From Candidatus Moraniibacteriota bacterium (GTDB lineage: Bacteria > Patescibacteriota > Minisyncoccia > Moranbacterales > GCA-2747515), in the NCBI GenBank assembly GCA_942490825.1, contig CALNYG010000003.1, forward strand, positions 68,105 through 132,104: a DNA stretch of 64,000 nt, read 5' to 3'. The position numbers were made by a program, and so were the translations under genes. Below the pieces are notes generated by a model. It saw nothing but the letters and a program-made list of their open reading frames with translations, was not told where the DNA came from and ran no database searches. Shown here piece by piece: positions 2,768 through 55,182 of the stretch; position 1 is the stretch's first letter, and each line of letters opens with the position of its first letter.

Positions 2768-4060
2768 GCTCTTTAACATCTTTGGGCAACTAAATTTAAT
2801 AAAATTGTCATCGGAAGAATACAAAATAATAATCTTTTACAAAAACGTTCAACATTTCTAATCCCAAAATGATTCCTTTTAATTCTTTCAAAATGATTAT
2901 GAATTCCTTCAGTATAAGCATTAGTTGTTTTAGATAAATAATAATTTAATATTTCATCAAACCATCTTGTTAATGTATTAGCCAAATCTTTCATATATTT
3001 TGATTCTGAAGTTTTGCAAAGACTGATGACATATTTTAATTGTTTTTGAGCTTCTTTTCTATTACTTTTCCAATATACTTTTCTGAGTTGATGAATTATT
3101 TTCCAACTTTGTTTTAACTTAGGAACTTTAACAAAAACTTTTTCTAATTTATTAAATTCTTCAATTGTTAATTTGTGTGTAGGTATCATCAGTAATTGAT
3201 TTATTTTATAAGATTCATTGTTGATATCTTGGAAAACTTTTTTTGTTCTTTTAATAAAAAGACAGCCCACTGAATTACATGAAAATGATCAATCACAATA
3301 ACCGCATTAGGAAAACATTCTTTAATAATAGCTGGAAAAAAAGAGTCCATATCAATACATACTTCTTTAACTGCTAATCTAAATTTTAAATCAATTTTTA
3401 ATAATTCTTTCAGCAATTCTTTTTGTGATAAATTTGGTAGAACACCTATCACCTCATTATCAATTAAATTAGTAATGTTAAAAACTTGTTTTCTTTTGCT
3501 AACTCCTTTGCCATCCATTCCAATTCTTTGAATAGATTTATCCCAAATTAATGAAGTATTTACCATTTCATCAATCATTCTCAGAGCCGACATAATGCTT
3601 ATCTGTCTAGATATAGCTAGTCCGCTATATGTGGTTTCTCTTAATTCTATGACAGAGTTTTTTTAAAAGCTGTGCTCATTTGTTGCCCTTTTTTAACTTG
3701 AGGTAAAGATTCCCAAAGTTTCTTTTTATGTTTAGAAAAATAAAATCTTCTTTGAGTAATAGCTATAAAAACTTTTTTATTTTCAAACATAGAATGAGCA
3801 ATTATTCTATTTCTTTTTTGATTAATTTTTTTACTTACCTCATTTTTTAATTTAAATGAATTCTTTTGTAAATGACAATGTAAAATTATTTTATCATTTT
3901 TTTCTTCAAATTTATCTAAAATATATCCTTCTAAATTGAATATTTTTTTAATCTCTTTTTTTTGCATTTTTAAAATATTAAATTATTAAAATAACTTAAT
4001 ATTTAAGCATAGAATTTAACAAATTTCAATACTTAGCTTTGCCCAAAGATGTTAAAGAGC
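2768..4060 (-). mobile_element. ISL3-family insertion sequence (decayed)
   Basis: Perfect 22-bp terminal inverted repeats: GCTCTTTAACATCTTTGGGCAA at 2768-2789 and its reverse complement at 4039-4060. The GGCTCTT-type end is typical of ISL3. They enclose transposase fragments. No clean target duplication seen. Confidence 0.8.
2773..3967 (-). pseudogene. ISL3-family transposase split into three reading frames
   Basis: Three consecutive ORFs (3647-3967, 3201-3593, 2773-3270) carry the N-terminal, central (VIVIDHFHVIQW) and C-terminal (TNAYTEGIHNHFERIKRNHFGIRN) ISL3 motifs. At least two frameshifts. Confidence 0.8.
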
Positions 4061-4140: not shown

Positions 4141-5319
4141 TTAATTTTTTACTTTTTTCATGGTCAGGTGTAAAACCATATATCCCACAACCCCTGAAAT
4201 GAGTGAACCGAGAATGATTCCCAGTCGCTCATCAAAGGCCACATGCATGCCGTTTTTATGAAAGGCTAAGCCGCCGACGAAAAGACTCATCGTGAATCCT
4301 ATGCCGCAGAGTATGGAGACTCCGTAGAGATTTTTAAAATTAATATCGCCGGGAAGTTGAGCGATTTTGAGTTTCACAGCCAAAAAGCTGAGCCCGAACA
4401 CACCGAACTGCTTACCGAAAAAGAGTCCGAGAGCGATGCCCGCTGGTACAGGATGGAGTAACTGTTCCAACCCTATACCGTGCAAATTAATACCGGAATT
4501 GGCAAAGGCAAAGATCGGCAGAATAGCGTAGACAATCCAAGGGTGCAATGCACGCTCAAGTTTTTTGAGTGGGGAAATTTCCGGGTTATCCTTGAAAAGC
4601 GGGATGAACATGGCAAGAAGCACACCGGAAATAGTGGCATGAATACCAGATTGTAAGGTGGCATACCACATAACAATACCCACCAGGATATACGGAGTTT
4701 TTCGAATAACGTTCACTTTGTTCATTGCCGCCAGGATCAAGACACAACCCAGGACCACAGCAAGCGGGAGAAAGGCTATCTTGCTGGTATAGAAAAAAGC
4801 GATGATGAGGACTGCGCCCAGATCGTCAAAAATAGCCAGTGAGGTCAGGAAGATTTTTAATTAATTGGGAATCCTTGACCCGAGCAGGGCCAGTACGCCC
4901 AGAGCAAAAGCGATATCAGTAGCCGTGGGAACAGCCCAGCCGCGCATTGCCTGTGCATCCCCTATATTCATGATTATGTATATAAGAGCTGGCAGTAGCA
5001 TTCCGCCGACGGCTCCAACAACAGGGAGCATAATATTACGTGGATCCGAGAGTTCCCCCTCTAAAATCTCACGCTTCAGCTCAAGCCCGACAAGGAAAAA
5101 GAAGACGGCCATCAGTCCGTCATTGATGAAATGATGGAACGACAGGTCAAGACCGATTGCCTTGATGCCAGGAATCCAACCGAAAAGATGAAGATGAAAA
5201 AAATCTTCGTACAGGTGCTGAATTCCCGGTATATTGGCACAGATAACCGCCAGTGTTGCAGATAGCATCAGCAGAAAGATAAAAAAGTCAACTGCAGACA
5301 CAAAAAAATCACCATTCAA
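4141..5319 (-). pseudogene. nhaA: Na+/H+ antiporter NhaA, inactivated (in-frame TAA, no ATG start)
   Basis: ORFs 4861-5319 and 4141-4860 are colinear with NhaA (INDGLMAVFFFLVGLELKRE, ATDIAFALGVLALLGSRIP, AIFDDLGAV, CGIGFTMSLF). They are in the same frame, separated only by TAA at 4861-4863. The 5' end begins at TTG straight after an in-frame stop. Confidence 0.85.
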
Positions 5320-6320: not shown

Positions 6321-6378
6321 TGTCATTCTGAACGAAATAATTTTTATGAAATAAAAATTATGTAGTGAAGAATCCCCC
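6321..6378 (+). repeat. structured intergenic repeat TGTCATTCTGAACG-[10-bp hairpin]-GTGAAGAATCCCCC, copy 1
   Basis: Conserved flanks at 6321-6334 and 6365-6378. The internal stem is ATAATTTTTA/TAAAAATTAT. The second copy is at 35434-35491. A mini-hairpin ATGTCAT-CCTGAAAAA-ATGACAT follows at 6404-6426. Confidence 0.7.
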
Positions 6379-6476
6379 AAAGAGAAACACAAAGCTTTCC
6401 ATTATGTCATCCTGAAAAAATGACATATCTGAAGGTTCGTGTAATTTTGTAAAATCAAAAATTTAAACCCTAAAAA

Positions 6477-6493
6477 GCCCGTGCGGCGAGCAC
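6477..6493 (-). repeat. GC-box repeat GTGCTNGCCGCACGGGC (copy 1, reverse orientation)
   Basis: GCCCGTGCGGCGAGCAC flanked by A/T runs. The same 17-mer occurs at 14925-14941 and 35380-35396, the latter with one substitution. Confidence 0.7.
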
Positions 6494-14924: not shown

Positions 14925-14941
14925 GTGCTCGCCGCACGGGC
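14925..14941 (+). repeat. GC-box repeat GTGCTCGCCGCACGGGC (copy 2)
   Basis: Identical core to the reverse complement of 6477-6493. Followed 87 nt later by TGTCATCCTGAAAAA. Confidence 0.7.
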
Positions 14942-15028
14942 TTTTAAAATTAAAAGTTTAAAAGTTTAAAAAATTACAATCACTAAATTTAAAACTTAAT
15001 GTTCGTGACCTTTCTTTCCTCTCTTTTA

Positions 15029-15300
15029 TGTCATCCTGAAAAATTTTTCTTACAAAAATAAATTAATCTTTTAAAATATATTTTCAATAAAAAATAAAAA
15101 ATACAAGCGATACTTAAAAAAATTTATTCAGAATATAATAGTATAACTAAACTTTAATTTTAAACTTATAACTTACCAGATTTCTTTAAAAACCCACTCC
15201 ATATCATTTCGACTGAAGTGTAGCGGAATAGAGAAATCTCAAAGCCTTAGAAAATCACAAAACTTCGAGACCTCTCGACTTTACTATCGCTACGCTCGAG
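15029..15300 (+). repeat. degenerate nested-repeat cassette (CCTGAA type)
   Basis: About 150 bp starting at TGTCATCCTGAAAAATTTTTC is homologous to 33871-34020. The right half is replaced by TCATTTCGACTGAAGTGTAGCGGAATAGAGAAATCTC ... CGCTACGCTCGAGA arms. Confidence 0.6.
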
Positions 15301-15454
15301 ATAATAATATTAGATATTTTTAAGAAATAGATTTTAAATTTGACCTTCTTACAAAAGAAGATAATTAGGTAACAATGGATAAATTTGTCAAAAAATTAAA
15401 AAAGAGTCCAAAAGAAAATTCCTCGCTTTAAGATTTTATTAATTTAATAACAAC

Positions 15455-15554: not shown

Positions 15555-17741
15555 ATGTCAAATTTCATAATATCACAAGCATATTTCATTTTAATAACCA
15601 TCTTTATACTCTTCCTGCCAGGATACTTACTACTTTGCGGAGTGTTCAAACGAGAACACTTTTCCGCCATCGAAAAAATAATATTAGCAATTCCAGTCAG
15701 TTTCGCCCTAGCAACTTTATCAATGATCATTTCCGGAACACTCGGAATGCCCATCAATAAACCGAAAATCACAATTCTCTTTGGAACAATAAACATCATT
15801 TTATTAGCTTTCACTTTTTACCAAAAAAAGAAAGATTCAACCAAAACCGAAAATAAACTTTTCAATTTTTCAAAAAACCAAAGTCGATTAATTATAATTT
15901 TGATCGCTTTAACTATAATTATAAAAAGCGTTTATTTAGTTGATGCCATATTCCCCACTTCTACCGATTTAGCCCATCACATGTTTTGGGTAGAAAAAAT
16001 AAAAACCACCCAAGAACTCCCAGTCTATCAAGAAATCGAAATAGAATATGACGAAAGTGACAATCCCACCCTATCCGAACAGCCAGTACGTACTGCAGAC
16101 TTCATCGTTGGTGAACATTTAATTTTTGTTGCCATTTCCCTACTTAGCGGAAAAAATGTGGTTTCTGCCTTTCCATCCTTAATTCTTTTGATTATAAATT
16201 TAGCCACAATTTTAACCATCTTTATTTTAACGCAAAGATTATTTGAGAAATATAAATACGTAAGCTGGGTTTCAATTTTTGTCTTATTATTTTTAGGACC
16301 ACTTTACGCAATCAGCTCATCCCAAGCAAAATTCGTAAGTGGCGGAGCGATCGGAAACATTTTAGGCGACCTATTTATTCCAACAATCTTTTATTTTATT
16401 TATCGAGCATTTGCCAACAAAAGACCTGCGATGTTAATGATGACAGTTTTTCTCGGCGGAAGTTTAGCTTATATTCATCACTTAAGTGCTTTTATTTTTG
16501 GTTATGCCTTTGGATTTAGTGCAATAATTATTTATCTATTTCAAGTAGATTTCAAAAAAACTTTTAGCGACTTTTTCAAATTACGTTCAGTAATAATCAT
16601 GGTTATTTTGTTCTTATTACAAGTAACTCTAAATTTTATTTTGGAAAAATTTTCAATAAAAATTCCCATTTTAAAAATTGAAAGTTTAAAAATGTCCTCA
16701 ATGATAATTTTATCAATTTTAGGAAATATTTTTATTTTATCTCTTTTACAAAAAGAATTTAAGGCAGTTATAATTGATTGGTTTAAAAATACAATCAAAC
16801 ATTATGTTTTTGCTTTCGTTATTATATTTGCCTGTATGTTTTTCTTTTTCTATGTTCCTTCATATTTAAACAAAGACGCCATCAGTTCAGCCACAGGAAC
16901 ACCTGAAAAAGCAACTCGAATCGGAATTCCTGTAAATGAATTGATGTACAGCTCAGGCGAGGCTCGCTTTGCTTTAGGCGTTATTGGATTAATTATAATT
17001 ATTTTAATCGCACTATTAGCTAAACATCCAAAAACTCGAGAATATTTTGAGCGAATTTCTCCCGCAAATCAATATGGACGAGCAATTACAATTGGTTGGG
17101 CAACAGCTTTGATTGCAATGAGTTTAGCACCGCAATATTTGAAAGTTAATATTATTTCTAGTCGAATTGCTAATTATGTAATTTTTCCCATTACTATTTT
17201 AGCTGGATTTGCAATTGTTTGGATTTTTGATATTCTGCATCAACGGCGAACCGATAAAACTTATTTACCGAAAATTTTTGTTTCGGCAACTTTTACTTTG
17301 ATATTTTTATTTTTACTAACAAATGGAATGCGAGACAACTCCTCTGCCTTAAATGAATCTCCGGAAGTCAAAAGAGCCGTGCAAACTTATAAAGCTTCTG
17401 AACGTCTTAGTGGCATGATTAAAGGTGACGATCAAATGGTTAAAGATCATAATTATATTAAAGGTGATACTTTCATTAAAATATTTTTTGCAAAAGATCC
17501 AAATTTCCCGCTTTCTCGTGCTTTCTTCAGAAAATATGAAAATAATCCTTATCGTGAGACTTGCACTTTAGATATGATTTCCAAACCAAATAGTCCTGAA
17601 GCTCAGAGATGTTTTGATGGTTTAAATGTTCGTTTTGTCATGGTTCATACCGATCACGATGCCTCACAGTTTAATGGTTCTGATACTTTTAGCAAGATTT
17701 ATCAAAATGATGAGTTAAGTGTTTATTTAAGAAAAAATTAA
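15555..17741 (+). CDS. large polytopic membrane protein, possible GT-C-fold glycosyltransferase
   Basis: 728 aa with at least 14 TM segments and a C-terminal soluble domain. Architecture resembles 9328-11499. No diagnostic motif recognised. Confidence 0.45.
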   Translation: MSNFIISQAYFILITIFILFLPGYLLLCGVFKREHFSAIEKIILAIPVSFALATLSMIISGTLGMPINKPKITILFGTINIILLAFTFYQKKKDSTKTENKLFNFSKNQSRLIIILIALTIIIKSVYLVDAIFPTSTDLAHHMFWVEKIKTTQELPVYQEIEIEYDESDNPTLSEQPVRTADFIVGEHLIFVAISLLSGKNVVSAFPSLILLIINLATILTIFILTQRLFEKYKYVSWVSIFVLLFLGPLYAISSSQAKFVSGGAIGNILGDLFIPTIFYFIYRAFANKRPAMLMMTVFLGGSLAYIHHLSAFIFGYAFGFSAIIIYLFQVDFKKTFSDFFKLRSVIIMVILFLLQVTLNFILEKFSIKIPILKIESLKMSSMIILSILGNIFILSLLQKEFKAVIIDWFKNTIKHYVFAFVIIFACMFFFFYVPSYLNKDAISSATGTPEKATRIGIPVNELMYSSGEARFALGVIGLIIIILIALLAKHPKTREYFERISPANQYGRAITIGWATALIAMSLAPQYLKVNIISSRIANYVIFPITILAGFAIVWIFDILHQRRTDKTYLPKIFVSATFTLIFLFLLTNGMRDNSSALNESPEVKRAVQTYKASERLSGMIKGDDQMVKDHNYIKGDTFIKIFFAKDPNFPLSRAFFRKYENNPYRETCTLDMISKPNSPEAQRCFDGLNVRFVMVHTDHDASQFNGSDTFSKIYQNDELSVYLRKN

Positions 17742-17782
17742 AAACAATTAAAAAACAAAAAAGCAATCTCCAATCCCTCCAT

Positions 17783-18344
17783 GTCGTTCCGGAATTTTTT
17801 AAAGTTTTTGTTAGAAAATTTTAAAAAATATCCGGAATCTCGATTGGTTTAAGCTAAATCCAATAGAAAAACAATGGACAAACAATATTTTATTTATATT
17901 CTAGCAAGTCGTAAAGATGGTGTTTTATACACTGGTTTCACTAGCGATTTGCTAAAAAGAATTTGGGAACACAAAAATAAAGTTGTAAAAGGTTTTACTT
18001 ATAAATACAATGCTGATAAGTTAGTTTATTTTGAACAAACTGAAAATTCAATAAGTGCAATTGAAAGAGAAAAGAAATTAAAAAAATGGAAAAGACAGTG
18101 GAAAATTGATTTGATTGAAAAAGAAAATCCTGAATGGAAAGATTTATATGAAGATTTAACATCATAAAATATATTTAGAAAATTTTCAGTCTCTATGTTA
18201 TTCTGGAAAATGATTTTGTAGCAAGGCGAAAAAATTACTTTCCGGAATCTCGTTAAGTTTATATAAGTTTTATCGAGATTCCGGATAGATTAATTTGTAA
18301 TCACTCACTCTGTTCGTGAACAAATTATATCTTCCGGAATGACA
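17783..18344 (+). mobile_element. GIY-YIG cassette 1 (nested inverted repeats around the gene, plus an internal empty arm pair)
   Basis: Outer arms GTCGTTCCGGAAT (17783) and CTTCCGGAATGACA (18331-18344). Inner arm TATCCGGAATCT at 17829. A second arm set lies after the gene: TGTTATTCTGGAAAA at 18196, and TCCGGAATCTCG (18241-18252) pairing with CGAGATTCCGGA (18274-18285). Confidence 0.55.
17874..18167 (+). CDS. GIY-YIG nuclease family protein (UPF0213/YhbQ-like)
   Basis: YFIYILASRKDGVLYTGFTSDLLKRIWEHK (GIY...YTG motif) and a conserved tail, EREKKLKKWKRQWKIDLIE. Confidence 0.85.
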   Translation: MDKQYFIYILASRKDGVLYTGFTSDLLKRIWEHKNKVVKGFTYKYNADKLVYFEQTENSISAIEREKKLKKWKRQWKIDLIEKENPEWKDLYEDLTS

Positions 18345-18386
18345 TAATAAATGTAAAATTATAAAAAATTTAAAAAAGGAATCTAT

Positions 18387-18752
18387 ATGAAAAATCAAAA
18401 AAATATTATTATTGCAATTGTTGTATTAATGCTTTCTAGTATTATGTTTTTGGGAATTGTGGAATATCGACAACAAACCGGAGAAGACAGTCAAGGTTGG
18501 TGGAGTGTTTATTTTGTAGCTCCTTATGATGAAAAGTCTTTAGATTTTGTGATTGAAAATTATGATAAAAAAACTGAATTTAGTTATGAAGTCATTTTAA
18601 GTAATGAGGTTGTGAAATCTGAAGATGTCATTGTTGAAAATGGTGAATTTAAAAGTGTTGAATTAGATATTAAAAAAGATGAAATGAAATCTGCTGAAAT
18701 TAAAGTTAGTCTTTCTGGTGAGAAAAAAGGCAAAAGTATTTTTAAAAGATAA
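18387..18752 (+). CDS. N-terminally anchored small protein
   Basis: 121 aa with one TM helix (IIIAIVVLMLSSIMFLGIV). AAAGGAA ribosome-binding site upstream. Confidence 0.5.
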   Translation: MKNQKNIIIAIVVLMLSSIMFLGIVEYRQQTGEDSQGWWSVYFVAPYDEKSLDFVIENYDKKTEFSYEVILSNEVVKSEDVIVENGEFKSVELDIKKDEMKSAEIKVSLSGEKKGKSIFKR

Positions 18753-19076: not shown

Positions 19077-19196
19077 CTAACTTGATAAAGTATTCTATCA
19101 GAAGAAGAAGCAGAGGTCAACTCCAATTTTACAAAATCCTTGAATTTAAGCCAAAAAGTGCTAAAATTAAATAACTTAAAAAGTTTTAAAATTATA

Positions 19197-20327
19197 ATGA
19201 AAAATACAAAAAAAATTCTCCTCGTCACTCGCCCGCTTTCCCCACCTTGGGACGAAGCCAGTAAAAACTTTGCTTTTGATTTAGTAAAAAATATCACTGA
19301 CAAAAACATCACAATTCTAACTAACACATTCAACGAAGAATTAAACAAAAACATTCATCAAGCCCAAATTCATCGAGAATCAAAAAACGATTTTAATTTC
19401 AAAGAAAAAGTTCGTTCCCTACTATTTCAAATCAAAAATCGCAAAAACTTTGATGTAATTCATTTTATGTTTACACCAACAAAGCTGAACAGTTTTGTAA
19501 TTAAAAATTTTATAAAAAACAAAAAAGTAAAAACCATTCAAACAGTTGCCACTTTGCGAGAAGATTTATATTCTGATGAAGAATTGAAAAATTTAATGTT
19601 TGGAGATGTGATTGTCACCTATTCAAAATATGCTAAACAAAAATTAGAATCATTTGGATTAAAAAACGTTCGACAAATTTATCCTGGATTTAATTTAAAT
19701 AAATTTAAGCCTGAAGAAAAAGATGTTGAATTAATGAAAAAATGGAATCTTAAACCTCAAGATACAATTGTTAGTTTTCCTGGTGAGTTCGTTCGGCTCG
19801 ATGCAACTGATTTTGTGATTGATACTTTTTTAGATCTTTGGAAAGATGAAAAAAATCACAACATTAAATATTTATGTGCTTGTCGAATCAAAAATGAAAA
19901 AGATGCTGAAAAGAAAAAAGAAGTTATTGAAAAATTAAAAAAAGCTGGTCATTTAGATAAAGTTGCTTTTAGTGATACTTTTGGTGATGTGAATAAACTT
20001 TATAATTTAGCAGATATTATTCTTTTTCCTGTTAATAATATGCGAGGAAAATTTGATGTTCCTTTGGCGATGATTGAACCTTATGCTTGTAAAAAACCTG
20101 TGATTGCGTCTGATTTGCCGATTTTGCAGGAATTTTCTAATGATAAAATTAATGTTATAATTGAAAGGAATAATAAAGAAGATTTGAAACGAGCAATTCT
20201 AGATTTGAAAAATGATGAAAATAAAAGAAAAGAGTTAGGCGAAAATGCTTTTGATTTTGCACATAAGACTTTTGATATTAAAAATATTGCTGAGCAGTAT
20301 GAAAATATTTATGAAGAGTTGTTTTAA
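19197..20327 (+). CDS. GT4-like glycosyltransferase
   Basis: First ATG at 19197; the ORF-track start at 19140 is TTG. GT-B layout with C-terminal FPVNNMRGKFDVPLAMIEPYACKKPVIASDLPILQEF. Confidence 0.7.
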   Translation: MKNTKKILLVTRPLSPPWDEASKNFAFDLVKNITDKNITILTNTFNEELNKNIHQAQIHRESKNDFNFKEKVRSLLFQIKNRKNFDVIHFMFTPTKLNSFVIKNFIKNKKVKTIQTVATLREDLYSDEELKNLMFGDVIVTYSKYAKQKLESFGLKNVRQIYPGFNLNKFKPEEKDVELMKKWNLKPQDTIVSFPGEFVRLDATDFVIDTFLDLWKDEKNHNIKYLCACRIKNEKDAEKKKEVIEKLKKAGHLDKVAFSDTFGDVNKLYNLADIILFPVNNMRGKFDVPLAMIEPYACKKPVIASDLPILQEFSNDKINVIIERNNKEDLKRAILDLKNDENKRKELGENAFDFAHKTFDIKNIAEQYENIYEELF

Positions 20328-20350
20328 AGTTCACTATAACTCTCCCTCAT

Positions 20351-20826
20351 GTCATTCCGGAATTTTTTATAATTTTTGAAAAAATTCTAAAAAATATCCG
20401 GAATCTTAAAATTTCAAATTTAAGCAAACTCTAACTACAACACAAATGAATAAAATCTATTGCGTATACATTTTAGCCAGCAAGAAAAATGGTGCATTAT
20501 ACATAGGCGTTACAAGTGATTTAAAAAATAGAGTTTGGCAACATAAAAATCACGCTGTTGATGGTCATACAAGTAAATATTTCATTCATAAATTAGTTTA
20601 TTATGAGCAAGGCGGTAATATTGTAAGTGCAATCGAAAGAGAAAAAGAATTAAAGAAATGGAAAAGACAATGGAAAATTGATTTAATTGAAAAAGAAAAT
20701 TCTGAATGGAAAGATTTGTATGAAAATTTATAAGTTAAATGATTCTCTTCAAATTTAAGATTCCGGATAGATTAATTTGTTTCCAATCGCTATCGCTCTT
20801 GGACAAATTATATCTTTCGGAATGAC
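20351..20826 (+). mobile_element. GIY-YIG cassette 2 (gene sits in the loop of nested inverted repeats)
   Basis: Outer arms GTCATTCCGGAAT (20351-20363) and TTTCGGAATGAC (20815-20826). The inner arms are a perfect 12-bp pair: TATCCGGAATCT (20395-20406) and AGATTCCGGATA (20758-20769). An extra stem AATTTGT/ACAAATT lies at the right side. Confidence 0.6.
20446..20733 (+). CDS. GIY-YIG nuclease family protein (second copy)
   Basis: YCVYILASKKNGALYIGVTSDLKNRVWQHK. The C-terminal third is nearly identical to 17874-18167 at both protein and DNA level. Confidence 0.85.
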   Translation: MNKIYCVYILASKKNGALYIGVTSDLKNRVWQHKNHAVDGHTSKYFIHKLVYYEQGGNIVSAIEREKELKKWKRQWKIDLIEKENSEWKDLYENL

Positions 20827-20910
20827 AACTGAAAGTAATCAAAAAAACCTAAAAATAAAAAGTTTTTTCAAAAATCTAAAGATAATCTTAAAATTATCTT
20901 GAAATTTTTA

Positions 20911-20946
20911 AAGCGAACGTCGGGCCAATACTGCAAACGTTCGCTT
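20911..20946. other. stable 10-bp GC-rich hairpin bounding a G+C-rich island
   Basis: AAGCGAACGT (20911-20920) pairs with ACGTTCGCTT (20937-20946) around a 16-nt loop. No U-tract on either strand. Confidence 0.6.
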
Positions 20947-20996
20947 ATATAATCCTAGCCGAGGCACCCACCTGGGTAACCCAATGGACAATCGCC

Positions 20997-21059
20997 TCAA
21001 TGAGGATTTCCGTCTTCATCGCAACCATTTAAAAAATATTTTTTAGGATTGATTGTCAT
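20997..21059 (-). CDS. 20-codon mini-ORF with a perfect Shine-Dalgarno sequence (speculative)
   Basis: AGGAGG (21066-21071) lies 6 nt before the ATG at 21059. The ORF encodes MTINPKKYFLNGCDEDGNPH and ends in TGA. It is followed in frame by 13 G+C-rich codons (GDCPLGYPGGCLG) and then TAG. Confidence 0.25.
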   Translation of the reverse strand: MTINPKKYFLNGCDEDGNPH

Positions 21060-21330
21060 GATGTGCCTCCTGCAATAATTTTTTATATTTTTGAAAGAGT
21101 TTCAGCCACCCTTTTCAAGTAAATTCTATCAATTTAATACTTATTTTATAAGCAAAAATCAATAAAATATTTTATCTTAAAAAGGGCTAGGATTGCTTCT
21201 GCTAGGGAAATAATTTAAGCTCTTTTTAAGAAACTAAATCATAGCTTAGCACAGAATAAAAGCATTGTCAATAGCGACAGACCAATCATTTTTAGTTATA
21301 ATAAAAACATAAAAACTTATTTAAAAAATC

Positions 21331-26341: not shown

Positions 26342-28494
26342 ATTTTTATTTTATTTTTAAAAATTATATTTAAAATTTATTTTTCATATACATAGGAATG
26401 AAGTCTTTTAACTTCAAAGCATTAACATCTGTACCAAATGGATCTCTAGATGCTATATCACGAGCACGCTTAACTGCCTCAGCTAATCTAATCCTTCCGC
26501 CTTGTTCAAATTGACTATCACTATAACTTATTAGAGGTAATTCACCCTTTAAGTCCGCAGAAGAATCACTATTCAATATACTTAAATAATCTTCAACGCC
26601 AGTGTTTTTTACTGACTCATAATATTTAGGATGGCCTTCACCCCAAATTTCCTTTGACCAATCAGCCTCGTATTGAGTAAGTCCTTCATATGGACCATTC
26701 TCAATAACTACAGTCCCTGGATCACTCCCTAAAACCGTCTCCTGAATATTTTCTTGAGGAGGAGCTATTTCTGACGACTGCTCTTGTATGTTGTCTTGAA
26801 GTTGTTGATTAGGAGACTCAATATCTACTGAAGATGAGGTCTCTGGACTATTTTCAGCCCCTAATAAAGATTCTCCCGAAGGACCTTCAATACCTAGAAT
26901 TTTAATATCATTTGGATAACCACTCATATCAAACTTAATTCTTGCACCTTCAGGAACTTTAAGAGGATCAAATTGAGGATTTTCTACTGCAAATTCTTTC
27001 CATATAACATGACTTCTAGCTTCTTCATGAGAACTAAGTATATCAGAAAATTTAGGATTATTTTCAGTTACTTCTTGAAGTGCAGGATCTTGTGCAAGCA
27101 TATTAGTAATACGACCTTCTATACTCTCACCTTCCATTAGAGGAGTTGACATAGCCATACCTTCTGAAGTAACAGATTCCAAATTACCTTGACTATTTTC
27201 CATTATATTCCCCGCATCAATGCCAAAAGGATTTTCAATTTCTGCCTTGCTAACAGTACCTTCTCCAGAATCCACAGCATGACCATCCTCGACATTGACT
27301 TGCAAAGTATCTTGTTCTTCAGGAAAATTTATTTCTCTACTAGAATCTATAGTATTACCATCCACTTTATCCATAACTGGCTCTAAAGATTCATTTAAGC
27401 CTGTTTTATTAGCCAATTCTTCAGTAACATTATCTTTAACAGCCTCAGCATTTGATTGCCAAGCATTTTTTTCAGAATAATTTATATTTTCACCAGAGCT
27501 TGTCGCTAAAGATTCATCAACTCCACTTAATTCATCACCACCAGATGGAATACCGTCGCCACCCTCAAATATATCATTAAACTTATCTACGCCTGCTCCA
27601 GCAACTTCTTTAACTTTATCTAAACCTGCCCCAGCATAATCCTTAGCTTTTCCAGCCATTTCACTAACTTCATCTCCATAATTATTAAAAGCCCATCCGA
27701 ATAATTTTCCCCCAAACATAATAGTTGCTCCAGCAGCTATTCCATAACCCCACCTTTTCATTCTTCCTGCTATTTGTGATTTTTTACCTTTTTCAATAGT
27801 CTCATTATCGTATTTAGCAAGTGCTGCCTTTAATTTTTCTTCACTATCAGATTCTTTAAGTTCTTTTTCTACGCTTTTTTCGTGAGCCACCTTAGCTTTT
27901 TCTTCAAATAAATTAAACACACCTGTGCCAGCTACACCTGCACCCAATGATCTTCTAATCCAAGTACATACACCTACTGTTCCAACAGCAACAGCTCCAC
28001 CTCCTGCAAGAGCAACTGTTGTACCAACCCCTAACATTGCCACACTTGTAGCTATCTTAGCTGGTCCAGAAATACCCTTATACCACTCAATTACTTTATG
28101 CATTTTTTCACCAACTTTTTCAACCATACCCAAATTTTGGGATTTAGCTTCTAATCTCGCTTCATAAAGTTCTCTTTCTTGAAGTTTAAGGAATTTCAAT
28201 TGTTCTCTACTAATTTCATCAGCTCTTTCTGGATTTTCTAATTTTTCTCCAGTTTTAAAAATTCTATACTCATCTAATAAAGCATAGTATTCCTCCTTTG
28301 CTTTTTGAGTATTTTCATCATTACCTGCTCTAACTTCCTGAACCATATATTCTTTACCTGCGATTCTAATTCTGGATTCTAGGTCACCTAACTGTTCATT
28401 CTTCTCAGATCCTTTTCTTTTAGCAGATTCTACAATTAAAGCAAGTAATTCTTTTACCCTATCTAAATCAATATCTCTAAGCTCTCCGATTTTT

Positions 28495-29267
28495 GGTATT
28501 GCTACTCAAATATAGAAATAGCAATTTCTCTGTGCATGAATAGCAAGATTGTATTTTCAACCATTTCAATACTTTTAGAATAACAATGAGTTTTCCTATG
28601 AAATCTTGCTATATAATGTCTTAATTGATTATTCATTCCTTCAACTGTAAAAGTCTCTGCTTTTGTTTGAATGTGCTTATCTTTTGGTAAAAATTTTTTA
28701 TAAACATCCCAATGATCTGAACAGTATTTATCGCAATCAATTTTTTTGATTTTGTCCCATAATTTTCTTCCAGTTTTTTCACCTCTTGTCCCTATCACGA
28801 AATCAATTATTATTTTACTAGATCTATCAACTGCAAGCCAAATCCAGGCTTTTTTCTTTTTTTTAACACAAAATGCCACATTTCATCTAATTCCATTTTT
28901 TCTATTTTCCAATATTTTACTTCTTTTTTACTTTTTAAAATATTCCTTAATTTTTTAGTTGCTTTTTTTACCCATCTTAATATACTAACGTTACTAACTT
29001 TCAGTATTCTTCCTATTGATCTAAATCCTAGTCCCTCTAAATACATTTCAATTGCTTTTTTCTTAATTTATTTAGGTTTTCCTCTTTTTGTAAATATAGA
29101 AAAGTTATATCTACATTCTTTACATAGATATCTTTGTTTTTTATTTACTTTACCATTTTTAACATAATTCTTATTATTGCAATGAGGGCATTTAATTTTC
29201 ATTTTTTTGTTTTTAGGTATTTAATTACCTATTCATTTTACATTATCTATAGTTTGGTAGCAATACC
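28495..29267 (-). mobile_element. IS1-family insertion sequence, copy 1 (773 bp)
   Basis: Ends GGTATTGCTAC / GTAGCAATACC. Perfect 8-bp target duplication CGATTTTT at 28487-28494 and 29268-29275. By eye, identical to copy 2 except for 3 substitutions at 29070, 29096 and 29110. Confidence 0.9.
28502..29202 (-). pseudogene. IS1 transposase with a nonsense mutation in the insA part
   Basis: Relative to copy 2, GAA to TAA at 29068-29070 truncates InsA, leaving an ORF only from MYLEGLG. There are two further missense changes (S to R, R to I). Confidence 0.75.
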
Positions 29268-32452: not shown

Positions 32453-33344
32453 ATGAATACACAAACTCAACCAACCATCCTAACCCTCGGACCAAAACAT
32501 ACCTTTTCCGATTTGCAAATCCCCCACTTTCAAAAAATTATTTCTAAAAAAGAAAAACCTTACGCAAAAAGTCTCAAAAAAAACTTTTCAGAAATAACAA
32601 AAACACTCAAAGAAAACCTCCACTATCTTGCTGTCGTTCCTTTAGAAAATAGTATTCAGGGAGATGTAACGGAAGTTCTGGATGCAATCTACAGTCAAGA
32701 TTTCAAAATTTTAGCGGGACACTGGCAATCAATTCACCTATCACTTTGCGGAGTTAAAAAAATAAGTGCTGAAAATTATAAAAATATCACTAAAATATTT
32801 TCTCATCCGCAACCACTTTCCCAAGCAAAAAAATATCTTGATGAAAATTTTCCTAACGCTGAGCGAATAGAAATGACTTCAACTGCTGAAGCGATCCGTT
32901 ATGTCGCTGAAGAAAAAAATGAAAACTTTTTAGCCGTCGGTCCAAAAGAATCTGGTGAATTTTACGATTTAGAAATTTTAGCTAAAAACATTGAAAGTTC
33001 AAAAAACAATCAAACTTTTTTTGTTTTGTTGTCCAACTCAAACCGTAGGGGTGTATTGCAATACGCCCCTACAACAAAACGTGCAAAACAAAAACCATGA
33101 AACCGCCCTAGCCTTCACATTCAATTATGACAAACCATCTTCCCTATTTAATGTTTTGCAATTTTTTGCTAAAGAAGAAATTAACTTAACAAAAATCGTT
33201 TCTCGACCAACTGGTGAAAAACGACATGATTATATTTTCTATTTAAACTTCGAAGGAAAGATTAGTGACAATCGAAATCTTTTAGAAAATATAAAATCAG
33301 AAACTAAAGAATTAAAAATCTTAGGTGAATATTTAGTTTTTTAA
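32453..33344 (+). pseudogene. pheA: prephenate dehydratase disrupted by a frame-shifting insertion
   Basis: The PDT domain (ORF 32453-33100, ...NNQTFFVLLSNSN) and the ACT domain (ORF 32991-33344, INLTKIVSRP...YIFYLNFEG) are in different frames. The total span is 892 nt (3n+1). Confidence 0.8.
33045..33072. repeat. 28-nt GC-rich palindrome inside pheA
   Basis: GTAGGGGTGTATTG|CAATACGCCCCTAC forms 14-bp arms with one G-T pair. Removing 33044-33083 (40 nt) joins the two pheA frames. Confidence 0.8.
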
Positions 33345-33420: not shown

Positions 33421-33621
33421 TTAATGGCGGCCTCCTTGTTTTTTGTAGTAAGCCTCTTGAAGGCTACCTGGATAATACTCATCTCCATCTTTTTTACGCT
33501 TTTTAATTTTAGTGGAGACCTTATCTTTTTCTGTCTTATCAGTAGGTGTTATTGTTGTTAACGGAATCAACGCTGAAAGGTCTTTTTGAGCCCTCTTATT
33601 TGCTTTGTCGTGAGCATTCAT
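33421..33621 (-). CDS. small basic protein, unknown
   Basis: 66 aa. AAGGAG sits 6 nt upstream of the ATG. Confidence 0.55.
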   Translation of the reverse strand: MNAHDKANKRAQKDLSALIPLTTITPTDKTEKDKVSTKIKKRKKDGDEYYPGSLQEAYYKKQGGRH

Positions 33622-33870
33622 GATTTTCTCCTTTATGTTTTAAAAAATAGATAAATTCAATCATTTAAATTTATCCAGTTTATACTGCCAATTAAACCCT
33701 CTAATATTAATAAAAGACTTAATCGGCAGATAAAACCAAAAGAAGAAATAAAACTGACTATAACTAAAAGAACTATAAATCAACAGTTTTATTAACCATT
33801 GATTCAATATCATAGCATTTAAAAAAATACTTGTCAACCACTCTCGCGGTAACATCTCACTTTCCTTGTG

Positions 33871-34150
33871 TGTCATCCTGAAAAATTTTTCTCGCAAAAA
33901 TAAATTAATACTTTAAAATATATCTTGATAGAATTACCAACTAATAAATTAAAATGAACCTCAAAAAAATTTATTCAGGATCTCATAGTATAACTAAACT
34001 TTAATTTAAAATTTATACTTTATTGTACGCTCCTAGATCCTGAATAAACTATTTTTTCAAATATTGTGATAATTTTAAATTAATTGATTAAATAAAGATC
34101 ATCTTAAAATTTAAAAATAAAATAAAATAAAAATAATTTTTCAGGATGAC
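33871..34150. repeat. empty nested inverted-repeat cassette (CCTGAA type)
   Basis: Outer arms are a perfect 16-bp pair: GTCATCCTGAAAAATT (33872-33887) and AATTTTTCAGGATGAC (34135-34150). Inner arms are a perfect 12-bp pair: TTATTCAGGATC (33971-33982) and GATCCTGAATAA (34036-34047). No ORF between them. Confidence 0.75.
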
Positions 34151-34178
34151 CTGTGTGAAGAGTTACCAGTTTAATGCA

Positions 34179-35379: not shown

Positions 35380-35396
35380 GTGCTAGCCGCACGGGC
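35380..35396 (+). repeat. GC-box repeat GTGCTAGCCGCACGGGC (copy 3)
   Basis: One substitution relative to 14925-14941. Followed 37 nt later by TGTCATTCTGAACG. Confidence 0.7.
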
Positions 35397-35433
35397 TTTT
35401 TAGGTCAAAAATTTTAAATCTCCACAAGTTTTC

Positions 35434-35491
35434 TGTCATTCTGAACGGATTTATTTTTTACTAGAAAAAATAAAGAAGTGAAGAATCCCCC
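35434..35491 (+). repeat. structured intergenic repeat TGTCATTCTGAACG-[hairpin]-GTGAAGAATCCCCC, copy 2
   Basis: Flanks are identical to 6321-6378. The internal 10-bp stem has a different sequence (TTTATTTTTT/AAAAAATAAA) but the same geometry. Confidence 0.7.
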
Positions 35492-35558
35492 GTAGAGAAT
35501 CATAAAACTTTAAATCTCTTGATCTTACTGCATAAATAAATCTATTTAAACAAAACCT

Positions 35559-54466: not shown

Positions 54467-54481
54467 AAAATTTTGGTATTG

Positions 54482-55182
54482 CTACTCAAATATAGAAATA
54501 GCAATTTCTCTGTGCATGAATAGCAAGATTGTATTTTCAACCATTTCAATACTTTTAGAATAACAATGAGTTTTCCTATGAAATCTTGCTATATAATGTC
54601 TTAATTGATTATTCATTCCTTCAACTGTAAAAGTCTCTGCTTTTGTTTGAATGTGCTTATCTTTTGGTAAAAATTTTTTATAAACATCCCAATGATCTGA
54701 ACAGTATTTATCGCAATCAATTTTTTTGATTTTGTCCCATAATTTTCTTCCAGTTTTTTCACCTCTTGTCCCTATCACGAAATCAATTATTATTTTACTA
54801 GATCTATCAACTGCAAGCCAAATCCAGGCTTTTTTCTTTTTTTTAACACAAAATGCCACATTTCATCTAATTCCATTTTTTCTATTTTCCAATATTTTAC
54901 TTCTTTTTTACTTTTTAAAATATTCCTTAATTTTTTAGTTGCTTTTTTTACCCATCTTAATATACTAACGTTACTAACTTTCAGTATTCTTCCTATTGAT
55001 CTAAATCCTAGTCCCTCTAAATACATTTCAATTGCTTTTTTCTTAATTTCTTTAGGTTTTCCTCTTTTTGTAAATCTAGAAAAGTTATAGCTACATTCTT
55101 TACATAGATATCTTTGTTTTTTATTTACTTTACCATTTTTAACATAATTCTTATTATTGCAATGAGGGCATTTAATTTTCAT
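54482..55182 (-). CDS. IS1 transposase (InsA zinc-finger/HTH frame plus InsB' DDE frame, joined by a -1 frameshift)
   Basis: InsA: CPHCNN...CKEC. The LDEMWHFV motif straddles the frame overlap. InsB frame: WIWLAVDR, SDHWDVY, TVEGMNNQLRHYIARFHRKTHCYSKS. Confidence 0.8.
54830..54844 (-). promoter_or_regulatory. probable programmed -1 ribosomal frameshift site of IS1
   Basis: The minus strand reads TTAAAAAAAAGAAAAAAGCC (A8-G-A6) inside the insA/insB overlap. The insB frame is -1 relative to insA. Confidence 0.6.

What the first reader, a model, noticed from the sequence alone, without database searches (positions are those of the whole stretch)
33871..34150. Gene-less copy of the same cassette architecture (empty site?), plus a half-degraded copy at 15029-15300
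Seen in sequence: 33871-34150 has perfect 16-bp outer arms (GTCATCCTGAAAAATT / AATTTTTCAGGATGAC) and perfect 12-bp inner arms (TTATTCAGGATC / GATCCTGAATAA). Only 53 nt lie between the inner arms and there is no ORF. The order and spacing of the arms mirror the GIY-YIG cassettes, with CCTGAA replacing CCGGAA in the arm core.

The left ~150 bp is homologous to 15029-15180. At that second locus the right half has been replaced by a different arm type: TCATTTCGAC...GAGAAATCTC / ...CGCTACGCTCGAGA.

The track ORF 33661-33897 is just a read-through of this repeat.

Inference: these may be the unoccupied, MITE-like form of the element, which would support mobility or gene gain and loss in the loop.
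Basis: partly seen in the sequence, partly recalled or inferred. Interest (0 to 1): 0.6.

Follow-up and report, generated by a model that had tools for sequence, protein, structure and literature searches.

The report
Gene-less pair of Ssn-nuclease hairpin repeats
The 280-bp gene-less palindrome is an inverted pair of the short hairpin repeats (CGTC/TGTC-tagged REPs, also called NTS or SRM) that small GIY-YIG "Ssn" single-strand DNA nucleases recognise, so it is an unusual long-looped example of a known repeat system and not an empty insertion site.

Summary
Window 33871-34151 holds perfect 16-bp outer arms, perfect 12-bp inner arms, a 53-nt centre and no ORF. Its left ~150 bp is 80% identical to 15023-15170.

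It consists of two inverted copies of one hairpin unit: 5'-(T/G)GTC, the 8-bp stem ATCCTGAA/TTCAGGAT, then C. This is the signature of CGTC-tagged REPs (Di Nocera 2013), also called NTS/SRM. Those repeats are the ssDNA targets of Ssn GIY-YIG nucleases (Chenal 2025).

Of 80 metagenomic homologues of the window's two GIY-YIG genes, 58 carry such a unit on both sides. The same loci hold 22 gene-less inverted pairs. The window is from a Moranbacteria (Patescibacteria) genome. Its units are a variant with an 8-bp stem, a 1-nt bulge and AT-rich extensions or loops of 30-90 nt. The published SRM search pattern does not detect them.

"Empty site" is not supported. Relatives that lack the GIY-YIG cassettes at the same sites also lack the hairpins. 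"Gene-less relative of the cassettes" is supported at the level of the repeat family. Descent by gene deletion is not shown.

Verdict: a new variant of a known kind, of modest interest. A by-product is a clean insertion polymorphism of the SRM-ssn-SRM cassette, with a 6-bp direct repeat at the junctions.

The parts
33871..33982 (+). Left hairpin unit (E3_L). It has the tag TGTC (33871-33874), the stem ATCCTGAA (33875-33882) paired with TTCAGGAT (33974-33981), and the tail C (33982). After the 8-bp stem come a 1-nt bulge and an AT-rich extension. The interior is about 60-75 nt.
   Evidence: I7; DNA fold: 8 pairs, bulge, 8 more pairs. Homologous over its full length to 15029-15135 and to L096 10620-10729.
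33983..34035 (.). The 53-nt AT-rich centre between the two units. It has no ORF and is itself part of the imperfect palindrome.
   Evidence: self inverted match 33963-34055, 72% over 94 nt; I2, I4.
34036..34151 (-). Right hairpin unit (E3_R), read on the - strand: GGTC, ATCCTGAA ... TTCAGGAT, C. It is an inverted copy of the same unit with a diverged 89-nt interior.
   Evidence: I12; DNA fold z = -2.4.
33848..33870 (+). Left 5' leader (GGTAACATCTCAC...). It mirrors the right flank, so the palindrome extends beyond the units. It would contain the expected Ssn cut site, a few nt 5' of the tag.
   Evidence: Read directly. Compare the 18-nt leader that travels with the E2 cassette. The cut position is taken from PMC11893778.
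34152..34167 (-). Right 5' leader (on the - strand: GGTAACTCTTCACACAG), the mirror of the left leader.
   Evidence: Read directly.
15029..15135 (+). Decayed copy of the same long-loop unit (E4_L). The tag and outer arm are intact. The inner arm is TTCAGAAT (G to A) and is followed by A instead of the critical C.
   Evidence: DNA fold no better than shuffles, z = 0.18.
15202..15306 (.). Two further degenerate hairpin units of another stem type: TATC-ATTTCGAC...GAGAAAT-C at 15202-15238, and its inverted partner at 15267-15306. Both lack the GTC tag.
   Evidence: read directly. The assignment to the family is an inference.
17782..18344 (+). SRM-ssn-SRM cassette E1. It comprises L unit 17782-17839, ssn1 17874-18167 (97 aa, GIY-YIG), an extra degenerate L' unit 18196-18249, and R unit 18277-18344. 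L' and R together form a gene-less pair inside the cassette.
   Evidence: Absent at the orthologous site in L095 and L096. The site is occupied in L107.
20332..20864 (+). SRM-ssn-SRM cassette E2, seen as a 533-bp insertion. It comprises an 18-nt leader, L unit 20350-20405, ssn2 20446-20733 (95 aa), R unit 20759-20827, a 31-nt trailer, and a second copy of AAAGTT (20859-20864; the first copy is at 20326-20331).
35434..35488 (+). Solitary unit of a third stem type (TGTC-ATTCTGAAC...GTGAAGAAT-C, with a tandem G.A/A.G). Sister copy at 6321-6374. A degenerate unit lies at 6405-6440.
   Evidence: (D14). The 134-bp block that contains it is absent from the 88%-related contig L092.

Best explanation
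What it is. Window 33848-34167 is a head-to-head dimer, with the tags on the outside, of a CGTC/TGTC-tagged palindromic repeat. This family has been described as dRS3/NTS in Neisseria, as RPE-4/6 in Rickettsia, and as Ssn-related motifs (SRM) in general.

How it works in other species (shown there). On the strand that reads 5'-NGTC-stem-loop-stem-C, each unit folds as single-stranded DNA into a hairpin. A small single-domain GIY-YIG nuclease of the Ssn family binds that hairpin. Binding needs the C after the stem. The enzyme nicks the single strand a few nucleotides 5' of the tag, and cleavage needs the GTC.

What follows for this dimer (inferred from geometry). Each strand carries one cleavable unit, and the two expected cut sites lie at the outer edges.

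Context (shown here). The same genome encodes two Ssn genes 13-16 kb away, each flanked by an inverted pair of such units. The present dimer is a non-coding member of the same repeat population. It has a different stem subtype (ATCCTGAA instead of ATTCCGGA). Its AT-rich interiors are unusually long.

Origin (inferred). It most likely arose by inverted duplication of one ~145-nt unit together with its leader.

Function (inferred). Its role would be that of the other genomic SRM copies: a site where Ssn processes single-stranded DNA, for example incoming or replicating DNA. It may also be a non-autonomous passenger of the repeat's own spread.

Not shown: that either Ssn encoded in the window recognises this stem subtype.
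For: Signature of the units.
- Both units have the GTC tag, an 8-bp stem that starts with AT, and the 3' C.
- These are the invariant columns in 48 diverse units, and 6 of 8 stem pairs show compensatory changes: 67 cells against 13.8 in shuffles.

Link to the GIY-YIG genes.
- The window's GIY-YIG proteins are single-domain and 95-97 aa long.
- Of 80 metagenomic homologues at 54-68% identity, 65 have an upstream unit, 67 a downstream inverted unit, and 58 both.
- In these loci, 27 units match the N. meningitidis NTS consensus with its first base relaxed, and 81 match the published SRM pattern.
- The literature gives the biochemistry and the NTS-ssnA-NTS architecture (PMC11893778). It also gives the repeat family and the predominance of head-to-head dimers with 20-100 bp spacers (PMC3733652).

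Gene-less pairs and the CCTGAA subtype elsewhere.
- There are 22 gene-less inverted pairs with spacers of 4-72 nt in the 80 loci.
- CCTGAA-stem units with short loops occur elsewhere (L003, L005).
- A MAG titled Rickettsiales carries the same two arms, including the same bulge, with a 3-nt loop (L002).
- A related Moranbacteria contig pairs a long-loop CCTGAA unit with a CCGGAA unit (L096).

Constraint on the stems.
- Between the two halves the arms are identical (16/16 and 12/12), while the interiors have diverged to about 65-70%.
- The copy at 15029 has lost exactly the critical positions.

Genomic setting. The locus lies in the gap between a terminator and a promoter.
Against: - The units fail the published SRM search pattern, which has zero matches in the window. 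Their loops are 15-20 times longer than the 4-5 nt that define CGTC REPs.
- No ssn gene flanked by CCTGAA-stem units was found. I checked 80 + 2 loci from the protein scans and 6 look-ups of close Ssn homologues.
- The published enzyme loses activity when the stem sequence is changed but the hairpin is kept. The two Ssn proteins in the window may therefore not act on this dimer.
- As DNA, the long-loop hairpins are only marginally more stable than shuffled sequence (z = -1.2 and -2.4).
- Assignment of the window's proteins to the Ssn clade (cd10448) rests on their homologues' flanks, not on a direct classification.
Confidence: 0.75

Rival explanations
1. The locus is a deletion derivative of a full SRM-ssn-SRM cassette. 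In this reading it is a MITE-like non-autonomous element that lost its GIY-YIG gene, kept both ends, and is mobilised in trans.
For: - The order and orientation of units match the cassettes.
- Cassettes are gained and lost between close relatives.
- Cassette E1 contains an internal gene-less L'-R pair.
- In one relative the R unit has lost its interior, which shows that internal deletions do happen (L106).
Against: - No trace of ssn coding sequence is found in or next to the locus (tblastn, only noise).
- The two halves stay homologous through the centre. A gene deletion would instead leave unrelated 5'-UTR and 3'-UTR stubs.
- No flanking direct repeat is present (read).
- Neighbouring units in ssn loci occur in all orientations (-+ 26, +- 22, ++ 16, -- 9). 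A tags-out pair therefore needs no gene-bearing ancestor.
- The stem subtype differs from both cassettes in the window.
Confidence: 0.15
2. The locus is an unoccupied target site, meaning a pre-existing pair of hairpins into which a GIY-YIG gene can home.
For: Only the architecture supports this: a gene-sized gap position between two inverted units.
Against: - True empty sites of both cassettes carry no hairpin units. L095 and L098 read TTTTAAAGTT|TTTT(T)CAAAAATC with nothing in between. The unit finder gives no hits in L095 or L098.
- The inserted block includes both units plus leaders.
Confidence: 0.03
3. The locus acts as RNA, or simply as a DNA palindrome. Possible roles would be a transcription insulator or terminator between the glycosyltransferase gene and the next promoter, an mRNA-stabilising 3' structure like some REPs, or a protein-binding cruciform. 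None of these would involve Ssn.
For: - The RNA fold is strong on both strands (z = -5.2 and -5.5).
- The locus lies downstream of a gene and its terminator.
- Di Nocera 2013 argue that many REPs are transcribed and lie downstream of coding regions.
Against: - It lies after a good intrinsic terminator (34291-34266) and before the next promoter (33837-33809), so read-through is needed for it to be transcribed at all.
- There is no Rfam match.
- The conserved asymmetric tag (GTC) and tail (C) are features that matter for Ssn on ssDNA and are not needed for a plain hairpin.
- SsnA does not bind RNA.
Confidence: 0.06
4. The resemblance is a chance product of AT-rich palindromes.
For: The genome is about 28% G+C. 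Local alignment of the locus with the cassette ends is not significant beyond the core.
Against: - Perfect 16-mer inverted repeats within 400 nt are expected 0.35 times per window and occur only at this locus, at cassette E2 and at one terminator-like hairpin.
- Homologous units occur in another genome and at 15029.
- All family invariants are present in both units.
Confidence: 0.01

Closest known systems
NTS / Ssn-related motifs (SRM) with SsnA-family GIY-YIG ssDNA nucleases (Chenal et al., Nat Commun 2025, PMC11893778)
   Same: - Oriented hairpin repeat with a 5' (C/T)GTC tag, a stem that starts with AT, and a C directly after the stem.
- Inverted copies flank a ~95-aa single-domain GIY-YIG gene.
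- Many further gene-less copies lie in intergenic DNA.
- Close homologues of the window's proteins are flanked by units identical to the Neisseria NTS consensus.
   Different: - The stem is ATCCTGAA (or ATTCCGGA), not ATTCCCGC.
- The 4-nt loop is replaced by a bulge plus an AT-rich extension and up to ~90 nt of interior.
- The tail is CTC/CTA/CTT instead of CYRG.
- The published search pattern finds none of the window's units.
- The host is a Patescibacteria genome.
- No biochemical data exist for these variants.
CGTC-tagged REP families, head-to-head dimers (Di Nocera et al., BMC Genomics 2013, PMC3733652). These include dRS3 of Neisseria and RPE-4/RPE-6 of Rickettsia.
   Same: - A CGTC tag that is often TGTC.
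- An 8-9 bp stem with A and T at its first two positions.
- A short unpaired tail.
- Units mostly organised as dimers with the tags outside and spacers of 20-100 bp. Here the spacer is 53 nt.
   Different: - Loops are defined as 4-5 nt. Here the interiors are 75-89 nt.
- The tail is not CCA.
- That paper knew of no associated enzyme ('apparently lack a dedicated transposase').
REPINs and RAYTs (GTAG-tagged REP doublets mobilised by a Y1/HUH transposase)
   Same: - Two inverted short hairpin repeats with a spacer, present as a non-coding population.
- A single-copy nuclease gene is itself flanked by the repeats.
- Recognition is of ssDNA hairpins with an unpaired tag.
   Different: - The tag is different (GTAG).
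- The enzyme fold is different (HUH tyrosine transposase against GIY-YIG).
- For Ssn the reverse strand is not cut, so one strand of a tags-out dimer carries only one cleavable site.
- Transposition has not been shown.
IS200/IS605 ends and their MITE-like derivatives (PATEs)
   Same: Subterminal imperfect hairpins are recognised in single-stranded DNA, with cleavage a few nucleotides from the hairpin foot.
   Different: - In IS200/IS605 both hairpins are on the same strand, and insertion makes no target duplication.
- Here the units are inverted, and the one cassette junction that could be read shows a 6-bp direct repeat.

Membership tests
SRM / NTS repeats (Ssn targets) | Oriented 5' tag HGTC followed by W-Y. 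The three nucleotides before the stem are needed for cleavage. | tested here: met
   TGTC-AT at 33871-33876 (+) and GGTC-AT at 34151-34146 (-). GTC is invariant in 48 units.
SRM / NTS repeats (Ssn targets) | Palindromic stem able to form a hairpin, with the structure kept by compensatory change across the family. | tested here: met
   Perfect 8-bp stem ATCCTGAA/TTCAGGAT in both units, extended to 16-19 pairs. Six of 8 pairs covary across the family. Caveat: the units were selected for at least 7 of 8 pairs.
SRM / NTS repeats (Ssn targets) | Cytosine immediately 3' of the palindrome, the most critical base for binding. | tested here: met
   C at 33982 (+) and at 34036 (- strand). This column is invariant. 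It is lost (A) in the decayed copy at 15135.
SRM / NTS repeats (Ssn targets) | Match to the published degenerate search sequence HGTCWYN(0-2)YYVSBRHN(0-5)WNVSBRGN(0-2)RNCYNB. | tested here: not met
   There are 0 matches in the whole window against 81 in the 80 ssn loci. Failure is due to the stem composition (T and A at V/S positions) and to loops far above 5 nt.
SRM / NTS repeats (Ssn targets) | Co-occurrence with an ssn gene that is itself flanked by the repeats. | tested here: inconclusive
   Two ssn genes with flanking units lie 13-16 kb away, but their stems are ATTCCGGA. No ssn with CCTGAA-stem flanks was found. Both stem types do pair in L096.
SRM / NTS repeats (Ssn targets) | Bound and cut as ssDNA, on one strand only, by the cognate Ssn. 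| not testable with these tools
   Needs purified protein and oligonucleotides.
CGTC-tagged REPs (Di Nocera 2013) | CGTC/TGTC tag and an 8-9 bp stem with A and T at positions 1 and 2. | tested here: met
CGTC-tagged REPs (Di Nocera 2013) | Loop of 4-5 nt and a tail fitting CCA. | tested here: not met
   The interiors are 75 and 89 nt between the extended arms. The tails are CTC and CTA.
CGTC-tagged REPs (Di Nocera 2013) | Head-to-head dimers (tags outside) with spacers of 20-100 bp. | tested here: met
   The tags are at 33871 and 34151 and the spacer is 53 nt.
Ssn nuclease family (for the two neighbouring genes) | Single-domain GIY-YIG protein of about 94 aa. | tested here: met
   PF01541 covers residues 4-78 of 97 aa and 5-78 of 95 aa, with no other domain.
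Ssn nuclease family (for the two neighbouring genes) | Placement in the cd10448 clade / homology to N. meningitidis SsnA. | not testable with these tools
   No CDD library and no SsnA sequence were at hand. NCBIfam has no model for it. Indirect support: homologues at 54-68% identity are flanked by canonical NTS.
REPIN / RAYT | GTAG tag and an associated Y1 (HUH) transposase. | tested here: not met
   The tag is GTC. A RAYT gene was not looked for. The associated gene family in the repeats' flanks is GIY-YIG.
Classical MITE (terminal inverted repeats plus target-site duplication, DDE transposase) | Direct repeat flanking the element, and ends matching an IS in the genome. | tested here: not met
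   No direct repeat flanks 33848-34167 (read). The arm motif occurs only at hairpin units, not at the IS-like ORFs.

The most novel reading that the evidence does not exclude
In this Moranbacteria lineage the SRM-ssn-SRM cassettes are active mobile elements. They insert as a unit of leader, hairpin, gene, inverted hairpin and trailer, with a 6-bp target duplication: AAAGTT at 20326-20331 and again at 20859-20864, against a single copy in two relatives. Gene-less tags-out dimers such as 33848-34167 would then be their non-autonomous, REPIN-like derivatives. This would make Ssn GIY-YIG nucleases the missing mobilising enzyme of the CGTC-tagged REP superfamily, and a new kind of GIY-YIG-driven DNA transposition in bacteria.
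Probability: 0.2. Interest if true: 0.75.

Novelty: new variant of a known kind. Interest (0 to 1): 0.35.

Why it matters
The locus itself adds little, because gene-less copies and dimers of these repeats are known. Three points are useful.

1. The repeat/nuclease system extends into Patescibacteria in a form that current search patterns miss: an 8-bp stem, a bulge, and a long AT-rich interior. Surveys based on the published pattern therefore undercount it.

2. The interiors can grow from 3 nt to about 90 nt while the tag, the stem and the tail stay fixed. This marks which parts are under constraint. It agrees with the published mutagenesis.

3. The neighbouring cassettes give a clean occupied-versus-empty comparison among close relatives, with a junction repeat. 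This is the kind of evidence needed to test the published suggestion that NTS-ssnA-NTS is, or was, a mobile element.

Tried and rejected
- Rfam: no family at the gathering threshold in the window or in 20 ssn loci. E-value scans of the locus and of the cassette region gave only chance microRNA-like hits. No tRNAs were found.
- Literature search by sequence strings returned only primer hits. A first keyword search returned only fungal mitochondrial papers.
- The genome-contig scan with the 21-mer outer arm gave two hits. One is a real minimal unit (L002). The other is a chance match inside a coding region (L001).
- The source contig could not be walked. The exact proteins of the window are not on record for context look-up.
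- The orthologous locus in the closest contig (L092, 88% identity in the glycosyltransferase) is not alignable between the glycosyltransferase and prephenate dehydratase genes: 965 bp against 413 bp with no similarity. No presence/absence call was therefore possible for this locus itself.
- A generic hairpin-unit finder with a span of 150 nt has a high background (14 hits against 6.8 expected). Window-wide counts from it are not used as evidence.
- The search for an ssn gene with CCTGAA-stem flanks found none.
- NCBIfam and PDB sequence searches did not classify the two GIY-YIG proteins further.
- I considered that the arms are ends of the IS-like elements in the window. I rejected this because the motif does not occur near them.
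Full report
**1. The observation.**

The sequence is as described, with coordinates shifted by one.
- The outer arms GTCATCCTGAAAAATT lie at 33872-33887 and, inverted, at 34135-34150.
- The inner arms lie at 33971-33982 and 34036-34047.
- The inner arms are 53 nt apart, and there is no ORF of 20 aa or more inside.

All four arms are copies of one motif in alternating orientation. The outer-left arm also pairs with the inner-left arm, and the inner-right arm with the outer-right arm (I7, I12).

Perfect 16-mer inverted repeats within 400 nt occur at only three places in the window. Simulations give 0.35.

The left ~150 bp is 80% identical to 15023-15170, E = 3e-36.

The window is about 28% G+C. 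The named close homologues of its proteins are from Candidatus Moranbacteria / Moraniibacteriota, within Patescibacteria.

**2. What the arms are.**

Each outer/inner arm pair is one hairpin unit: 5'-(N)GTC, a stem that starts with AT, an interior, the return stem, and then C. The left unit is 33871-33982 on the + strand. The right unit is 34036-34151 on the - strand. The locus is therefore two inverted units with their tags on the outside.

The two GIY-YIG genes of the window are each flanked by an inverted pair of the same kind of unit, with stem ATTCCGGA. They are 17874-18167 and 20446-20733, single-domain PF01541 proteins of 97 and 95 aa.

Folded as single-stranded DNA, the cassette units (except the degenerate right unit of E2) and both units of this locus share one geometry. 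It consists of 8 base pairs, a one-nucleotide bulge on the 3' arm, and then an AT-rich extension.

**3. Generality.**

I scanned metagenome contigs with the alignment of the two GIY-YIG proteins. This returned 80 loci from organisms of 29-66% G+C.
- 65 have a unit just upstream of the gene. The median distance is 18 nt.
- 67 have an inverted unit just downstream.
- 58 have both.

The commonest form is TGTCATTCCCGCGAAAGCGGGAATCCAG.

Stems differ between loci by compensatory changes. In a 48-unit alignment that includes the window's types, 6 of 8 stem pairs show changes on both sides: 67 cells against 13.8 in shuffles. The GTC tag, the first A-T pair, one C-G pair and the C after the stem are invariant. 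The units were selected for pairing, so the percentage paired is not independent evidence. The variety of pair types is.

Both units of the locus carry every invariant.

**4. The known system.**

These units are the CGTC-tagged REPs of Di Nocera et al. 2013 (PMC3733652). That family has an 8-9 bp stem starting with AT, a 4-5 nt loop, a short tail, and mostly head-to-head dimers with the tags outside and spacers of 20-100 bp. It includes Neisseria dRS3 and Rickettsia RPE-4/6. The authors noted that it had 'no dedicated transposase'.

Chenal et al. 2025 (PMC11893778) showed the following.
- The oriented form (NTS, CGTCATTCCCGCGMAVGCGGGAATCYRG; more generally SRM) is bound as single-stranded DNA by SsnA, a 94-aa single-domain GIY-YIG nuclease.
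- SsnA cuts a few nucleotides upstream of the motif.
- The C after the palindrome is critical for binding, and the three bases before it are critical for cutting.
- dsDNA, RNA and the reverse strand are not substrates.
- The gene is typically flanked by the repeats (NTS-ssnA-NTS).
- In N. meningitidis the system restrains transformation by NTS-bearing DNA.

In my 80 loci, 81 sites match their SRM pattern, and 27 match the Neisseria NTS consensus with the first base relaxed. This ties the window's GIY-YIG genes to that family. No Rfam family covers the units.

**5. How this locus differs.**

The published SRM pattern has no match anywhere in the window. The stems contain T and A where the pattern demands G or C. 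The interiors are about 30-50 nt in the cassettes and 75-89 nt in this locus, against 0-5 nt in the pattern.

The long interior is inherited, not random. The left unit, the decayed unit at 15029 and a unit in a related contig (L096 10620-10729) align over their whole length.

The same two arms, including the same bulged A, occur with only a 3-nt loop in a MAG titled Rickettsiales (L002). Short-loop CCTGAA units occur in other contigs (L003, L005). Other Moranbacteria carry ordinary short-loop units around ssn (L102).

The long-loop form is thus a lineage-specific variant of a widespread stem subtype.

**6. Is it an empty site or a gene-less cassette?**

Relatives give a direct answer for the two cassettes.

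| Contig | GT4 identity to window | E1 site | E2 site |
|---|---|---|---|
| L095 | 92% | no cassette, no units | no cassette, no units |
| L098 | 88% | not covered | no cassette, no units |
| L096 | 85% | no cassette | cassette present |
| L106 | not measured | not covered | cassette present |
| L107 | not measured | cassette present | not covered |

(GT4 is the glycosyltransferase at 19140-20327.)

The empty E2 site reads TTTTAAAGTT|TTTT(T)CAAAAATC in both L095 and L098. The window has 533 extra bases at that point: an 18-nt leader, the L unit, ssn2, the R unit, a 31-nt trailer, and a second AAAGTT.

The hairpins therefore come and go with the gene, and a site without the gene has no hairpins. 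That excludes the 'unoccupied site' reading of 33871-34150.

Descent from a cassette by gene loss is possible but unsupported, for three reasons.
- tblastn finds no ssn remnant.
- The two halves remain homologous, at about 70%, through the centre and out into 17-23 nt of leader on each side (GGTAAC...). That fits an inverted duplication of one unit.
- In ssn loci, neighbouring units occur in every orientation, with alternating ones favoured (-+ 26, +- 22, ++ 16, -- 9). That count includes 22 gene-less tags-out pairs with spacers of 4-72 nt.

The locus is best described as a head-to-head homodimer of the repeat.

**7. Constraint.**

Between the two halves the arms are identical (16/16 and 12/12), while the interiors have drifted.

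The copy at 15029-15135 keeps the tag and the outer arm. It has a G-to-A change in the return stem and an A in place of the critical C. It no longer folds better than shuffled sequence. It is followed by two further degenerate units of another stem type, at 15202-15306, which lack the GTC tag.

**8. Context.**

On the - strand the order is as follows.
- Glycosyltransferase stop at 34322.
- Intrinsic terminator at 34291-34266.
- A second small hairpin.
- The dimer.
- A strong sigma-70-like promoter at 33837-33809 (11 of 12 matches, TG-extended).
- A leader of about 180 nt, then a 66-aa ORF.

The dimer thus lies in a gap that need not be transcribed. This fits a DNA-level element. ORF 33661-33897 has no family match and crosses the promoter, so it is probably not a gene.

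**9. Mechanism, and what is shown.**

*Shown elsewhere:* Ssn proteins bind such hairpins in ssDNA and nick upstream.

*Shown here:* the locus has the required tag, stem and tail in both units. The genome encodes two Ssn-type genes with units of the same geometry. The stems are conserved while the interiors drift.

*Inferred:*
- An Ssn of this genome acts on these units.
- In the tags-out dimer each strand offers one cleavable site at the outer edge.
- The biological effect is on single-stranded DNA intermediates (uptake, replication, repair), on the spread of the repeat itself, or on both.

*Open:* which Ssn recognises the ATCCTGAA stem, since the published enzyme is sequence-specific.

**10. 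Verdict.**

The locus is a long-interior variant of a known repeat family, in a phylum and a form that published search patterns miss.

The most interesting by-product is the occupied/empty comparison of the neighbouring cassettes, with its 6-bp junction repeat. It bears on the unproven idea that SRM-ssn-SRM is a mobile element.

Noticed in passing
window 20326-20864; L095 4130-4160; L098 1310-1340: Cassette E2 is a clean 533-bp insertion relative to two close relatives. Their uninterrupted site reads TTTTAAAGTT|TTTT(T)CAAAAATC. In the window AAAGTT is present at both junctions (20326-20331 and 20859-20864). This could be a target-site duplication or deletion microhomology.
   Followed up: partly
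window 17740-18390 versus L095 2080-2190, L096 3906-3952, L107: Cassette E1 is absent from two relatives at the same intergenic site, downstream of the DUF6541 gene. The site is occupied in a third contig (L107) by an ssn gene that is 86% identical to the window's other copy, ssn2. Cassettes seem to move or recombine between sites.
   Followed up: partly
L096 10508-10729: A related Moranbacteria contig has a gene-less tags-out heterodimer. It consists of a CCGGAA-stem unit (like the R units of the window's cassettes), a 45-nt spacer, and a long-loop CCTGAA-stem unit homologous to 33871-33982.
   Followed up: yes
window 6477-6493 (-), 14925-14941 (+), 35380-35396 (+); also L092, L095, L096 (3 copies), L098: A conserved 17-nt G+C-rich motif, GTGCT(C/A)GCCGCACGGGC, flanked by A and T runs. 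It is terminator-like (GCUCG-CCGCA-CGGGC-UUUU). It is expected 0 times by chance. It is conserved at the same place in a relative and often lies 50-110 nt from a hairpin unit. Two of the three window copies are in divergent intergenic regions, where a terminator is not expected.
   Followed up: partly
window 33045-33072: A 28-bp GTAG-tagged palindrome, GTAGGGGTGTATTGCAATACGCCCCTAC, sits inside the prephenate dehydratase gene at the point where the reading frame breaks into two ORFs (32453-33100 and 32991-33344). The orthologue in L092 is one intact 313-aa gene and lacks the palindrome. It looks like an intragenic REP of the other (GTAG) superfamily.
   Followed up: partly
window 35398-35557 versus L092 1955-1980: A 134-bp block containing the solitary hairpin unit 35434-35488 is absent from the 88%-related contig. 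The flanking 17-nt motif and both neighbouring genes are conserved. A 76%-identical sister unit is at 6321-6374.
   Followed up: partly
window 18196-18344: Cassette E1 has an extra degenerate left-type unit (TGTT-ATTCTGGA...TCCGGAAT-C) after the ssn stop. With the R unit it forms a gene-less tags-out pair with a 27-nt spacer inside the cassette.
   Followed up: no
window 33622-33837 (-): A near-consensus promoter (TTGACA, 17 nt, TATGAT, with TG) lies about 180 nt upstream of a 66-aa ORF (33421-33621) that has no family match. The long leader has no Rfam hit.
   Followed up: no
window 20930-21075; L095 about 4250-4420: A G+C-rich island lies between cassette E2 and rtcB. On the - strand it has a Shine-Dalgarno-like GGAGG and a very short ORF. 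At the same place the relative L095 appears to encode a Cys-rich small protein (read by eye, not verified).
   Followed up: no
window 28491-28790 and 54471-54770: An exact 300-bp duplicate covers a small transposase-like ORF that I take to be IS1-like (not checked against any library). A second, apparently disrupted, set of ORFs that may be transposase-like lies at 2773-3967.
   Followed up: no
L005 2200-3040 (IMG/VR contig): A tandem array with a ~138-nt period alternates a CGTC-ATTCTGAC unit and an inverted TGTC-ATCCTGAA unit. It is a BIME-like cluster of this repeat family in a contig classed as viral.
   Followed up: no
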